Virus record (IMG/VR): IMGVR_UViG_2737471840_000007
Location: 1-40,626 of that record
DNA from: a virus
Lineage: Duplodnaviria > Heunggongvirae > Uroviricota > Caudoviricetes
Strand: one strand, 5' to 3'
Length of the DNA: 40,626 nucleotides
Shown: piece after piece, positions 36,345 through 37,204 of the stretch
Layout of the letters: each line of letters starts with the position of its first letter
Position numbering within the stretch: position 1 is the stretch's first letter
The notes under the pieces: model-generated
Told to the model about the DNA's origin: nothing
What the model saw: the letters and a program-made list of their open reading frames with translations, nothing else
Databases searched by the model: none
Made by a program: the position numbers and the translations under genes

Positions 36345-36689
36345 GTGAGACATTTACTTTGCACTGTTACCGTGTTCGCGGTGCTTATATCAGCACCCGC
36401 TTTTGCGGATCAGCAATGTGGTGATTTTAAAATCCATTGGGCAGATGATGGCTTAGCCAGAATCAATGGCGCAAAGCCAGAAATGCAAAAAATCACCTTC
36501 CTGAAAAACAAAGGCGATTATAACAATATCAAGATGGATTGGCGTATGGCTACCGATCAGCCTGGAAGATGGGTTGGTCTTGAGTACATCAATCGAAACG
36601 GCAAGATAATTCTCAATGCCCAGTGGCTGCAAGCCAGCATGAATGCGCCGCGTCAGTATGCAACATACGACTGCCGAAAAGTAAAATAG
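36345..36689 (+). CDS. Secreted small protein of unknown function (signal peptide, 2 Cys), GTG start
   Basis: 114-aa ORF with N-terminal signal peptide LLCTVTVFAVLISAPAFA-DQQ; lower GC than flanking tail genes; interrupts the baseplate gene series. Confidence 0.55.
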   Translation: MRHLLCTVTVFAVLISAPAFADQQCGDFKIHWADDGLARINGAKPEMQKITFLKNKGDYNNIKMDWRMATDQPGRWVGLEYINRNGKIILNAQWLQASMNAPRQYATYDCRKVK

Positions 36690-36707
36690 CCCGCCAGATA
36701 GGCGGGC
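36689..36707 (-). terminator. Intrinsic terminator for the minus-strand DUF4236 gene
   Basis: 7-bp stem GCCCGCC/GGCGGGC with 5-nt loop, followed on the minus strand by TATTTTACTTTT. Confidence 0.5.
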
Positions 36708-36712
36708 ATGCG

Positions 36713-37003
36713 TCAAAAATATTGAGCTTTAATTATAATAAACACAATAATTACGAACAGGATGTTTCTAATTATTTTTTGCTTATGAGTAAGTTGTTTT
36801 TTTTCTGTCGATTTCCCGGGAGAGTAAAGGTTAGTGGTATGCGACAGCCCCGTGCCGGGAAGGCCATTTGTCATCTTTACGCCTTTTTTCCCGATGTTAA
36901 TGGTGGAACCTTTACCACCAATCGAAGTGCTTACTCCACTTTTGCTAATGTTGATCGCGAGTCCGGGCGCAATCCGGATTCTTTTGCGAAATCTAAATCC
37001 CAT
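36713..37003 (-). CDS. DUF4236-like protein with C-terminal hydrophobic anchor
   Basis: 96-aa ORF starting MGFRFRKRIRIAPGLAINISKSGVSTSIGGKG (DUF4236 signature as recalled); C-terminal IIRNILFVIIVFIII; AGGAG SD; opposite strand to the late operon; AT-rich. Confidence 0.6.
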   Translation of the reverse strand: MGFRFRKRIRIAPGLAINISKSGVSTSIGGKGSTINIGKKGVKMTNGLPGTGLSHTTNLYSPGKSTEKKQLTHKQKIIRNILFVIIVFIIIKAQYF

Positions 37004-37178
37004 TTGTTACTCCTGTAGTCAAGAATGCGATGGTGCAGGTCCACTCTATGGCGGCTTCATGGCTGAAATTGATTTTTAATGCTTACTTGTTGCAAACATA
37101 TCCTAATACACCTTGTGAATGTGTGCCATTGCAGCGGAAAAGCCTTACTTCACACTGATGTAGCTTAGTAATTGATAC

Positions 37179-37204
37179 CAAACCAGCTTCGGCTGGTTTT
37201 TTTA
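37179..37204 (+). terminator. Intrinsic terminator immediately upstream of the baseplate spike gene
   Basis: CCAAACCAGC-TTCG-GCTGGTTT followed by TTTTT. Confidence 0.55.

What the first reader, a model, noticed from the sequence alone, without database searches (positions are those of the whole stretch)
36345..37204. Accessory island (moron) inside the baseplate gene cluster: secreted protein plus oppositely oriented DUF4236-like membrane protein, bracketed by terminators
Between the baseplate hub gene (ends 36332) and the baseplate spike gene (starts 37215) sit two genes unrelated to tail assembly. One is a GTG-initiated 114-aa protein with a clear signal peptide and two cysteines. The other is a minus-strand 96-aa protein with the MGFRFRK...NISKSGVSTSIGGKG signature I associate with DUF4236 and a hydrophobic C-terminus. 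The segment is visibly more AT-rich than the flanking tail genes. It has a terminator hairpin for the minus-strand gene (36689..36707) and a strong plus-strand terminator (37179..37204) directly in front of the next tail gene. An own-strand, own-terminator cargo unit embedded in a late operon is the classic moron layout, suggesting a lysogenic-conversion or defence function expressed independently of the late operon.
Basis: partly seen in the sequence, partly recalled or inferred. Interest (0 to 1): 0.65.

Follow-up and report, generated by a model that had tools for sequence, protein, structure and literature searches.

The report
Swappable cargo slot in prophage baseplate
Between two baseplate genes of an E. 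coli prophage lie a conserved exported protein that belongs to this phage lineage and a swappable slot that here holds a small DUF4236 membrane-protein gene but holds about twenty other cargoes in sister prophages; this is an ordinary kind of phage "moron" hotspot, although both proteins are uncharacterised.

Summary
The coordinates, the GTG-started 114-aa signal-peptide protein with two Cys (ORF A), the minus-strand 96-aa DUF4236 protein with a C-terminal TM helix (ORF B), the AT-richness and both hairpins are all present.

- **ORF A is not cargo.** It sits directly after the hub gene in every relative examined: 83 prophage/IMG-VR loci and 20 of 22 phage records with a hub at least 55% identical. 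In a sister lineage it is packed hub–ORF A–spike with about 10-nt spacers. It is a lineage-specific late-operon gene for a periplasmic, disulfide-closed 8-stranded beta-barrel of unknown function.
- **The strong terminator before the spike gene is also backbone.** It occurs in all 83 loci with compensatory stem changes, even where the slot is empty.
- **Only 36690–37178 is cargo.** At least 21 unrelated cassettes occupy this slot in relatives, including Phd/Doc pairs and EACC1- and HEPN-like proteins.
- **The DUF4236 cassette is a true moron.** It is nearly identical next to ORF A alleles only 62–99% alike. DUF4236–TM genes also recur inside tail modules of unrelated temperate phages.

Function is inferred, not shown: envelope-level exclusion or defence. 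This is a new member of a known kind, of moderate interest.

The parts
35268..36332 (+). Baseplate hub gene (left backbone flank).
   Evidence: phrog_196 'baseplate hub' E=5e-84; Pfam E217_GP41 E=6.6e-6, 26.0 bits against a 27-bit cut-off. The alleles of its C-terminal half co-vary with ORF A alleles (Spearman rho 0.61 in 22 loci).
36345..36689 (+). ORF A: a 114-aa exported protein (phrog_3443). Signal peptide is residues 1-21 (36345..36407). The mature 93-aa part is an 8-stranded beta-barrel with invariant Cys25 and Cys110. It is a lineage-conserved backbone gene, not cargo.
36690..37178 (.). Exchangeable cargo slot, here holding the type-1 cassette (DUF4236 gene with its terminator and upstream region).
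   Evidence: 83 loci hold at least 21 unrelated cargo types plus one empty slot of 65 nt. Homology to relatives with other cargo breaks right after the ORF A stop and resumes at the terminator.
36689..36707 (-). Hairpin terminator of the minus-strand DUF4236 gene: 7 G-C pairs, then TATTTTACTT on the minus strand. It abuts the ORF A stop codon.
   Evidence: z = -5.2. It is present in all 12 sequence variants of the type-1 cassette. A different hairpin sits at the same place beside another minus-strand cargo (ET791).
36713..37003 (-). ORF B: a 96-aa DUF4236 protein. It has a basic six-strand beta-meander (residues 6-60), a linker and a C-terminal TM helix (about 73-95) with a 4-residue tail. Predicted to be a C-tail-anchored inner-membrane protein with a cytoplasmic N-terminal domain.
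   Evidence: Pfam E=1.8e-20. pI 11.6; the N-terminal domain has 10 K/R and 0 D/E. AlphaFold2 pLDDT 81. The architecture is shared by 44 aligned homologs.
37004..37178 (-). AT-rich upstream region of ORF B that travels with the cassette. The gene's own promoter must lie here, but none was identified. The motif TTGACTACAGGAG (Shine-Dalgarno included) lies directly before the ATG.
   Evidence: (spacer 37004-37214 is 41% GC). No sigma-70 consensus hit.
37180..37203 (+). Conserved intrinsic terminator (AAACCAGC-TTCG-GCTGGTTT plus a T run) immediately before the spike ribosome-binding site. It is backbone and forms the right boundary of the slot.
   Evidence: It is found in all 83 loci. Stem variants are ACCAGC/GCTGGT, ACCCGC/GCGGGT, AGCCGC/GCGGCT and GGTCGCA/TGCGGCC, which are compensatory. 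It is also present in the empty-slot locus L088.
37215..37853 (+). Baseplate spike gene (right backbone flank). Its first ~100 codons are 96-100% conserved among loci, while the C-terminal half falls to 44% identity.
17304..17822 (+). Context: a Q-type late antiterminator of the same lambdoid prophage. It would let late transcription read through the terminators in the tail operon.
   Evidence: Pfam Phage_antitermQ E=1.3e-25. The read-through itself is inferred from established lambda biology.

Best explanation
The hub-spike gap is a two-layer accessory region of a lambdoid, Q-regulated E. coli prophage with a simple contractile tail.

**Layer 1: ORF A (shown by comparison).** ORF A is a fixed gene of this enterobacterial temperate-phage lineage. 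It always lies directly behind the hub gene, on the same strand, with its own Shine-Dalgarno sequence. It is therefore most likely transcribed with the late tail operon.
- Its product carries a Sec signal peptide. The signal sequence drifts freely, but its charge, hydrophobic core and small-residue (mostly A-x-A) cleavage site are kept.
- The mature ~93-residue protein is predicted to be a periplasmic 8-stranded beta-barrel. A disulfide between the invariant N- and C-terminal cysteines would close it.

**Layer 2: the cargo slot (shown by comparison).** The stretch from the ORF A stop to a conserved intrinsic terminator in front of the spike gene is an exchangeable slot.
- Cassettes are swapped by homologous recombination in the conserved flanks, namely the ORF A 3' end on one side and the terminator plus the spike 5' end on the other.
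- Here the slot carries a DUF4236 cassette: a reverse-strand gene with its own hairpin terminator and AT-rich upstream region.

**Inferred steps.**
- In the lysogen the cassette is transcribed from its own promoter, which has not been mapped.
- The backbone terminator keeps lysogenic transcription out of the spike and wedge genes.
- During lytic growth Q-modified polymerase reads through, and the convergent late transcription silences the cargo.
- The DUF4236 protein inserts into the inner membrane by its C-terminal helix, with its basic beta-sheet domain in the cytoplasm.
- Both ORF A (periplasm) and ORF B (inner membrane) act at the envelope. Most likely they hinder genome delivery by other phages, that is superinfection exclusion or defence in the manner of HK97 gp15, P22 SieA, T4 Sp or P1 Sim.

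The architecture is well supported (about 0.9). The exclusion function is a guess from location, topology and the other cargoes in the slot (about 0.35).
For: **ORF A as backbone**
- Homologs 63-100% identical follow the hub in all six E. coli loci inspected, regardless of cargo.
- The same holds in all 80 IMG/VR loci.
- It also holds in 20 of 22 phage records with a hub at least 55% identical.
- The sister lineage L104-L110 has hub-ORF A-spike with about 10-nt spacers.

**ORF A as an exported protein**
- The signal region is variable while QCG...YDC is invariant across 31 close and 17 distant members.
- A lipoprotein-fused form exists.
- The AlphaFold2 model is a beta-barrel with pLDDT about 88 over the mature part.

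**The slot**
- At least 21 cargo types and one empty state were found.
- Cargoes include Phd/Doc pairs, an EACC1 protein and a P22-antirepressor N-terminal domain protein, and a weak HEPN hit.
- The terminator is conserved with compensatory stem changes.

**Mobility of the cassette**
- ORF B is 96-100% identical beside ORF A alleles that are 62-99% identical. Twelve near-identical cassette variants exist.
- GC is 39.9% against 54-57% in the flanking genes.

**Recurrence of DUF4236-TM genes in tail modules**
- The same slot is used in Klebsiella and E. coli prophages with alleles only 52-64% identical.
- In lambda-like siphovirus tails the gene lies between gpH and gpM (Leclercia, opposite strand) and after gpK (P. 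syringae).

**Other support**
- A Q antiterminator is present in the window.
- The precedent of HK97 gp15, an inner-membrane exclusion protein encoded by a moron inside a tail operon, is described in PMC3594210.
Against: - There is no expression data.
- No sigma-70 consensus promoter was found upstream of ORF B, and the promoter and terminator scans are at chance level on counts alone.
- PADLOC has no model matching ORF A or ORF B. Most other cargoes also give no hit or only weak hits, so calling this a defence hotspot rests on a few recognisable cargoes.
- ORF A lies in the late operon without a visible promoter of its own. In the sister lineage it has no terminator. This fits a role in the phage's own lytic cycle at least as well as a role in the lysogen.
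- ORF A alleles do not co-vary with the tape-measure SLT domain or with the spike (rho 0.10 and -0.07, n=22 loci). No target is therefore indicated.
Confidence: 0.55

Rival explanations
1. Both genes together form a single horizontally acquired moron island, bracketed by its own two terminators and expressed independently of the late operon for lysogenic conversion or defence.
For: Both genes are AT-richer than their neighbours. Both are absent from distant relatives of the tail type, where hub and spike abut. Hairpins lie at both places named.
Against: ORF A is retained with every one of the 21 or more cargo types and in the empty-slot locus. It is co-oriented with the hub and starts 13 nt after it. 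In the sister lineage it is packed between hub and spike without any terminator. The downstream terminator is backbone. The DUF4236 cassette moves without ORF A.
Confidence: 0.08
2. ORF A serves the phage's own lytic cycle. It would be a late periplasmic protein that aids egress or protects the infected cell. Possible roles are modulating lysis, blocking lysis-from-without or re-adsorption, or neutralising a host periplasmic factor. It would not be a lysogen-expressed exclusion factor.
For: ORF A has an operon position with 10-13-nt spacers and no visible promoter. Its synteny with the hub is strict over 30-100% identity. It co-varies with the adjacent hub C-terminal half (rho 0.61).
Against: A complete holin/endolysin/Rz lysis cassette lies elsewhere, at 18283..19500. 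Virulent relatives with the same tail type lack ORF A, as does Hafnia phage yong1, which has an SLT tape measure. ORF A is far more diverse than the structural genes around it (mean identity 0.80 against 0.94-0.99), which is more typical of conflict interfaces. The conserved terminator behind it suggests transcription that must be stopped when Q is absent.
Confidence: 0.3
3. ORF A is a PliC/MliC- or PhiA-type periplasmic inhibitor of a peptidoglycan hydrolase. The target could be the SLT domain on the tape-measure protein of incoming phages.
Confidence: 0.1
4. The DUF4236 protein is a membrane-acting toxin or abortive-infection effector, a holin-like or type-I-toxin-like small membrane protein. 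It would kill or arrest the cell on infection rather than block entry.
For: It is a small, very basic, single-TM protein. The predicted open beta-meander could oligomerise. Neighbouring cargo types in the same slot are toxin-antitoxin and HEPN/EACC1-like conflict modules.
Against: No partner or antitoxin gene lies in the 489-nt cassette. The family is carried stably in many prophages and chromosomes. There is no PADLOC match.
Confidence: 0.2
5. ORF A is a divergent avidin-family ligand-binding protein secreted to the periplasm.
Against: The E-values are at noise level, since nanobodies score the same. Pfam Avidin does not hit at E<=10. Trp94 is not conserved in the family. Biotin-contact residues were not checked.
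Confidence: 0.04

Closest known systems
HK97 gene 15 moron (Juhala et al. 2000; Cumby et al. 2012; reviewed in PMC3594210)
   Same: It is a small single-pass inner-membrane protein gene inserted as an extra unit inside a tail operon of a lambdoid temperate phage. Its GC content differs from that of its neighbours and it has its own terminator. It is absent from close relatives (for gp15; for ORF B).
   Different: There is no sequence relation: gp15 is YebO-like, ORF B is DUF4236. ORF B is on the opposite strand, is anchored by a C-terminal rather than an N-terminal helix, and sits in a baseplate cluster of a myovirus. Expression from the prophage and exclusion are demonstrated for gp15 and untested here.
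Hotspots of anti-phage systems in P2-like prophages and P4-like satellites (Rousset et al. 2022, PMC9122126)
   Same: Conserved flanking genes enclose a short locus whose content differs between otherwise similar prophages and includes toxin-antitoxin and other conflict genes.
   Different: This is a different phage lineage (lambdoid regulation with an E217/Pam3-type simple baseplate). The position is different, inside the baseplate operon between the hub/ORF A and the spike. Most cargoes here are single small genes that match no known defence model. I listed that paper but did not read it in detail.
Periplasmic superinfection-exclusion proteins: T4 Sp (spackle, inhibits the gp5 tail lysozyme) and P1 Sim (my own knowledge, not checked with the tools)
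   Same: They are small phage-encoded proteins exported by a cleavable signal peptide. They act in the periplasm on the penetration step of incoming phage. This is the working model proposed for ORF A.
   Different: No sequence or specific fold similarity was found. ORF A is encoded inside the tail operon and its activity is untested.
PliC/MliC/PhiA periplasmic lysozyme-inhibitor barrels
   Same: They are 8-stranded periplasmic beta-barrels of about 90-100 residues, in soluble and lipoprotein forms.
phrog_3443 and Pfam DUF4236 (PF14020)
   Same: ORF A matches phrog_3443 end to end (E=3e-45). ORF B matches PF14020 (E=1.8e-20) and nine PHROG families that share the DUF4236 N-terminus.
   Different: Both families are annotated 'unknown function'. 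The held literature has a single incidental mention of DUF4236.

Membership tests
Pfam DUF4236 (PF14020) | Score above the curated gathering threshold of the family HMM over the whole ~55-residue domain. | tested here: met
   ORF B scores 73.6 bits against a cut-off of 27, E=1.8e-20, residues 3-55 on profile positions 1-54 of 55.
phrog_3443 / 'STY1065/STY2022 family phage-derived protein' | Full-length profile match. | tested here: met
   ORF A matches phrog_3443 at E=3.1e-45, residues 2-114 on profile positions 2-114 of 115. A 63%-identical homolog carries the NCBI name. The NCBIfam HMM library itself gave no hit, so that name probably comes from another rule.
Moron (Juhala et al. 2000; PMC3594210) | An extra gene present in some genomes and absent at the same place in close relatives. 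| tested here: met
   This is met for ORF B: 19 of 83 loci carry it, the others carry unrelated cargo or none. It is not met for ORF A within its clade, where ORF A is present in all 83 loci. ORF A is absent only from distant relatives.
Moron | Base composition differing from the surrounding genes. | tested here: met
   ORF B is 39.9% GC and ORF A 45.2%, against 54.1% for the hub and 57.0% for the spike.
Moron | Own terminator. | tested here: met
   This is a prediction only. ORF B has a 7-bp G-C hairpin followed by a T-rich tail on its own strand, and the hairpin is conserved in all cassette variants. The terminator downstream of the slot is backbone, not the cargo's own.
Moron | Own promoter. 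| tested here: inconclusive
   An opposite-strand gene needs its own promoter. No sigma-70 consensus site was found in 37004-37178. Part of that region is deleted in cassette variants L026 and L055.
Moron | Expression from the repressed prophage. | not testable with these tools
   This needs RNA-seq or a reporter assay in a lysogen.
Prophage hotspot of anti-phage systems (Rousset et al. 2022) | Conserved flanks with highly variable content among related elements. | tested here: met
   At least 21 cargo types lie between the conserved ORF A 3' end and the terminator plus spike 5' end.
Prophage hotspot of anti-phage systems | The content is enriched in known defence systems. | tested here: inconclusive
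   Two kinds of Phd/Doc pair, an EACC1-domain protein and weak HEPN_IX, SngB and PDC hits were found. Most cargoes, including ORF B, match nothing in PADLOC.
PliC/MliC lysozyme inhibitors | Family HMM match or conserved inhibitory motifs. | tested here: not met
Avidin/streptavidin family | Family HMM match and biotin-binding residues. | tested here: not met
   Pfam Avidin is absent at E<=10. PDB profile hits have E 0.004-0.8, equal to the nanobody noise. Biotin-contact residues were not examined.
Sec-exported periplasmic protein (signal peptidase I substrate) | A positively charged n-region, a hydrophobic h-region and small residues at -3 and -1, kept across divergent homologs. | tested here: met
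   This is by heuristic only, as no SignalP tool was available. ORF A has MRH, a 15-residue core and AFA|D. The same layout appears with unrelated sequences in 31 close and 17 distant homologs. Export itself is untested.

The most novel reading that the evidence does not exclude
ORF A founds a new family of periplasmic, spackle-like exclusion proteins. The family would be genetically welded to the hub module of E217/Pam3-type contractile tails in temperate enterobacterial phages. It would neutralise the membrane-penetration device of incoming phages with the same tail type. DUF4236-TM proteins would be a second, widespread family of exclusion or defence factors carried in tail modules and acting at the cytoplasmic face of the inner membrane. 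Together they would mark the hub-spike junction as a place where phages keep anti-penetration functions linked to the penetration machinery.
Probability: 0.2. Interest if true: 0.7.

Novelty: new member of a known kind. Interest (0 to 1): 0.42.

Why it matters
Morons and prophage hotspots are a main source of new anti-phage and lysogenic-conversion functions. This locus offers three things.

- **A compact, well-delimited slot.** It is about 65 nt when empty and has fixed flanks. It can be mined across Enterobacterales prophages for small, mostly unannotated cargo genes; 21 types are already seen here.
- **Two uncharacterised envelope proteins with clear, testable predictions.** DUF4236 is a widespread Pfam family with no known function, and it turns out to recur inside the tail modules of unrelated temperate phages. 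phrog_3443 is an exported barrel held in strict synteny between hub and spike, which is unusual for a tail operon.
- **A correction to annotation practice.** An AT-rich gene pair in an operon need not be one island, and the conserved terminator belongs to the phage backbone.

If either protein blocks genome delivery, it would add a new exclusion family. It would also matter for phage-therapy host-range prediction in E. coli, Salmonella and Klebsiella lysogens.

Tried and rejected
- **NCBIfam and PADLOC** on ORF A, ORF B and six other cargo proteins gave no hits.
- **PADLOC on ten further cargoes** gave only weak hits.
- **Avidin lead.** It rests on PDB profile E-values of 0.004-0.8 and a local motif. 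I rejected it as not significant, because nanobodies score equally and Pfam Avidin is absent.
- **Hafnia phage yong1 gp67 and Burkholderia Magia gp21** as divergent ORF A homologs: rejected by hhalign (probability 0.1% and 3.8%, the latter on the signal peptide only).
- **E217 gp42.** This gene lies between hub gp41 and tip gp43 and is not mentioned among the structural proteins in PMC10329688. It has no signal peptide and so is not an analogue.
- **Promoter search upstream of ORF B.** No consensus site was found. By eye I considered TTGCAA-17-TCAATT and TTCACA-based sites. I dropped them as poor or as not conserved in cassette variants L026 and L055.
- **Transposon-like ends.** No flanking direct or inverted repeats were found.
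- **Rfam.** Only sub-threshold hits appeared (isrK 17 bits against a gathering score of 50; SNORD97), so there is no known RNA here.
- **Co-variation of ORF A with the SLT domain, plug or spike** was none, and was present only with the adjacent hub C-terminal half (n=22 loci).
- **Literature.** Searches for DUF4236, PF14020, STY1065 and STY2022 gave nothing relevant.
A single-protein scan with P0209 gave one spurious locus.
- **The 131-aa plus-strand ORF 36623..37018** is the mirror image of ORF B and is taken as spurious.
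Full report
**1. The observation**

- The hub gene is at 35268..36332 (phrog_196 baseplate hub E=5e-84; Pfam E217_GP41 just under its cut-off). 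The spike gene is at 37215..37853 (spike N-terminal domain E=1e-41). Together they enclose 882 nt.
- ORF A (36345..36689, +) starts with GTG, 13 nt after the hub stop and behind GAGGTGGGG. It encodes 114 aa with the N-terminus MRH-LLCTVTVFAVLISAP-AFA|DQQC and two cysteines.
- ORF B (36713..37003, -) encodes 96 aa. It matches Pfam DUF4236 at E=1.8e-20 and ends in a hydrophobic stretch.
- GC falls to 45.2% (ORF A), 39.9% (ORF B) and 41.2% (the 37004-37214 spacer), against 54-57% in the hub and spike.
- Both hairpins exist. By count alone, terminator-like sites are not above the shuffle expectation (3 against 3.5). Their significance comes from comparison with relatives, described below.

**2. 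Context**

- The window begins with a LacY-family permease gene (1..1248).
- It then runs through a lambdoid prophage: an S24 repressor (10067..10780, -), NinG, a Q antiterminator (17304..17822) and holin/endolysin/Rz genes (18283..19500).
- Terminase and head genes follow, then a contractile tail whose baseplate genes match the Pam3/E217 type: Dit-like, Pam3 gp18 plug, hub, spike, sheath initiator, J-like wedge and DUF2612 wedge.
- The tape measure ends in an SLT domain.

**3. Relatives show two layers**

Megablast of hub to spike finds 51 E. coli genomes, of which only 16 cover at least 80% of the query. Six annotated loci all have a homolog of ORF A right after the hub, 63-100% identical. 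What follows ORF A differs between them:
- DUF4236 on the opposite strand (YZ22PE67, SY3626);
- a cassette annotated with a 53-aa hypothetical protein (ET791), where instead finds a 116-aa minus-strand EACC1-like ORF;
- a 106-aa secreted protein (strain 81);
- a 185-aa membrane protein plus a 70-aa protein (AF20);
- a Phd/Doc pair (ABWA45).

The DNA alignment shows homology ending at the ORF A stop codon. It resumes at a hairpin plus T-run directly in front of the spike ribosome-binding site.

I then fetched 80 IMG/VR loci that encode an ORF A homolog.
- In every one, the hub is immediately upstream of ORF A.
- The distance from ORF A to the spike ranges from 66 to 1718 nt.
- Clustering the intervening DNA gives at least 21 unrelated cargo types plus one empty state (L088, 65 nt holding only the terminator).
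- Recognisable cargoes include two kinds of Phd/Doc module, an EACC1-domain protein on the minus strand, a TM protein with a Mu-F-like C-terminus and a P22-antirepressor N-terminal domain protein. There are also weak HEPN_IX, SngB and PDC hits and several small signal-peptide proteins.
- Most cargoes match nothing.

**4. The terminator is backbone**

All 83 loci carry a G+C-rich hairpin, then T6-8, then ATGGRGTTTTT-ATG (the spike start).
- The stem occurs as ACCAGC/GCTGGT, ACCCGC/GCGGGT, AGCCGC/GCGGCT or GGTCGCA/TGCGGCC. These are double compensatory changes at two stem positions.
- The hairpin is present with every cargo type and in the empty slot. It therefore marks the right edge of the slot and does not belong to the DUF4236 unit.
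- The prophage has a Q antiterminator. From lambda biology, late transcription should read through the hairpin. I infer that its conserved role is to stop Q-independent transcription, from cargo or upstream, from entering the spike and wedge genes in the lysogen.

**5. ORF A is a lineage gene**

*Distribution.*
- In the phage database, 20 of the 22 records whose hub is at least 55% identical also have an ORF A homolog (33-71% identical). Where both genes map to the same region, ORF A starts within about 90 nt of the hub end. These include Citrobacter Omnitron, Yersinia YP3, four vB_EcoM phages, several Klebsiella prophage-derived phages, Mulock and SEN34 (Brunovirus).
- The exception is Hafnia yong1 (two records), which has an unrelated gene there.
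- A sister lineage (L104-L110; hub 58% and ORF A 30-38% identical) has hub, ORF A and spike separated by only about 10 nt, with no cargo and no terminator.
- More distant relatives of the tail type have hub and spike adjacent or overlapping (Providencia PSTCR3, Rosemountvirus yarpen).
- ORF A is thus an addition that became fixed in one enterobacterial temperate clade. It is not a core tail component, and it is not swappable cargo either.

*Family size and fold.*
- The family is small: 79 clusters at 90% identity and 56 representatives at 50% identity among 1.84 billion.
- All members keep a signal-like N-terminus of unrelated sequence, a QCG motif just after the predicted cleavage site and YDC near the C-terminus.
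- A lipoprotein-tethered version with an extra ~195-residue domain exists (P0201, and the SY3626 locus, where RefSeq calls it a pseudogene).
- AlphaFold2 predicts an 8-stranded up-and-down barrel, with pLDDT about 88 over the mature part.

*Variation.*
- ORF A is much more variable than its structural neighbours, with mean pairwise identity 0.80 against 0.94-0.99.
- It co-varies only with the adjacent hub C-terminal half (rho 0.61), not with the SLT region, plug or spike (n=22 loci).

**6. The DUF4236 cassette is a moron**

- ORF B is 96-100% identical in 19 loci, while the adjoining ORF A alleles there are only 62-99% identical to the window's.
- The whole 500-539-nt cassette exists in 12 near-identical variants. 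All carry the same hairpin abutting the ORF A stop.
- It is the most AT-rich segment of the region.
- No transposon-like repeats flank it. Exchange by homologous recombination in the conserved flanks is therefore the likely route; this is an inference.
- The protein is very basic (pI 11.6; 10 K/R and 0 D/E in the N-terminal domain). It has a predicted six-strand beta-meander (residues 6-60), a low-complexity linker and a C-terminal TM helix with a 4-residue tail. Forty-four homologs share this layout.

*Recurrence in other tail modules.* More distant DUF4236-TM genes (44-64% identical) also sit inside prophage tail modules.
- The same hub/ORF A/spike slot is used in Klebsiella and other E. coli prophages.
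- In a Leclercia lambda-like tail the gene lies between the tape measure and gpM, on the opposite strand.
- In a Pseudomonas syringae lambda-like tail it lies after gpK.
- This recurrent placement parallels the HK97 gene 15 moron. That gene encodes an inner-membrane protein, lies in a tail operon, is expressed from the prophage and blocks genome injection (PMC3594210).

**7. Mechanism and its limits**

*Shown by comparison:* the backbone/cargo partition, the mobility of the cassette, and the conservation of the terminator and of the export signal.

*Inferred:*
- late-operon expression of ORF A;
- lysogenic expression of ORF B from an unmapped promoter in 37004-37178;
- insulation by the terminator and read-through under Q;
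- envelope localisation of both proteins.

*Guessed (about 0.35):* that one or both hinder genome delivery by other phages.

The main rival for ORF A is a role in the phage's own late cycle. The main rival for ORF B is a membrane toxin or abortive-infection role. There are no expression data, no promoter and no specific fold or family match to any characterised protein.

**8. Novelty and score**

- Morons in tail operons and variable prophage hotspots are well known. This is a new member of that kind, in a lineage and position I did not find described.
- The parts that could repay experiments are the strictly syntenic exported barrel between hub and spike, and the recurrence of DUF4236-TM genes in tail modules.
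- Interest is 0.42.
- The most novel reading not excluded is two new envelope-level exclusion families linked to the penetration machinery. I give it probability about 0.2 and interest about 0.7 if true.

Noticed in passing
L003:2569-3459 (E. coli SY3626, NZ_CP059283.1); also protein P0201: Here ORF A is an intact 296-aa ORF. It has a lipobox (LLVSGC), a ~195-residue extra domain and then the ORF A barrel domain. RefSeq annotates only the 3' part, as a pseudogene 'missing N-terminus'. A 292-aa protein of the same build (P0201) is a cluster representative elsewhere, so a lipoprotein-tethered form of the family exists.
   Followed up: partly
L094-L102: Small DUF4236-TM genes recur inside tail modules of unrelated temperate phages. 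In a Leclercia lambda-like siphovirus tail the gene lies between gpH and gpM on the opposite strand. In a Pseudomonas syringae tail it lies after gpK. It also uses the same hub/ORF A/spike slot in Klebsiella prophages.
   Followed up: partly
window 36991-37024 (minus strand); L094:4745-4772; L096:4978-5003: The motif TTGACTACAGGAG lies directly before the ATG of DUF4236 genes whose proteins are only 52-64% identical. It is altered (TTTTCT...) in cassette variants L026 and L055. It may be a translation-initiation or regulatory element and is unexplained.
   Followed up: no
L092:3445-3816 (Burkholderia phage Magia gp21) and L111:7595-8128 (Pseudomonas phage E217 gp42): Distant phages with the same hub type also keep a non-structural gene at the hub-spike junction. 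Magia has an unrelated 123-aa signal-peptide protein on the opposite strand. E217 has a 177-aa cytoplasmic-looking gp42 that the E217 structure paper does not mention among the structural proteins. The junction seems a favoured insertion point across the tail type.
   Followed up: partly
window 37215-37853 and homologous loci: The spike is mosaic. Its first ~100 residues are 96-100% identical among 22 loci, while the C-terminal part falls to 44% identity and occurs in forms of different length (212 aa in the window, 246 aa in several relatives). The spike's conserved 5' end may serve as the recombination anchor for slot exchange.
   Followed up: partly
window 35800-36689 and homologous loci: ORF A alleles co-vary with the hub C-terminal half (Spearman rho 0.61). 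Several other adjacent segments show no co-variation (plug with hub N-terminus -0.15; hub N-terminus with hub C-terminus 0.14). The last ~15 hub codons and the ORF A signal peptide are a junction of high variability. The sample was only 22 loci.
   Followed up: partly
window 36534-36647 (ORF A residues 64-101): A local resemblance to avidin strands (YINRNGKIILNAQWL against FIDRNGKEVLKTMWLL), together with a streptavidin-like predicted fold. It is statistically at noise level (E 0.004-0.8).
   Followed up: yes
window 1-2300: The window starts with a 415-aa LacY-family permease (Pfam LacY_symp E=1e-193). By eye it looks like the sucrose permease CscB rather than LacY. A 66-aa minus-strand ORF (1778..1978) resembles AlpA-type excisionase or regulator proteins by eye. 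No integrase was seen among the ORFs listed for 1200-4300.
   Followed up: no
window 37131-37202 (+): A sub-threshold Rfam hit to isrK, a prophage-borne Hfq-binding sRNA of Salmonella (17.3 bits against a gathering score of 50, E=0.64). It ends in the conserved terminator and is probably driven by the hairpin alone.
   Followed up: no
L008 (NZ_CP171874.1 3704000-3753000): The 99%-identical relative in strain YZ22PE67 is a prophage remnant. Its early region is replaced by an IS1 next to tRNA-Thr and proA. Its tail-fibre end carries an invertible-looking pair of tail fibre and assembly genes, a recombinase fragment and a DUF262 gene.
   Followed up: no
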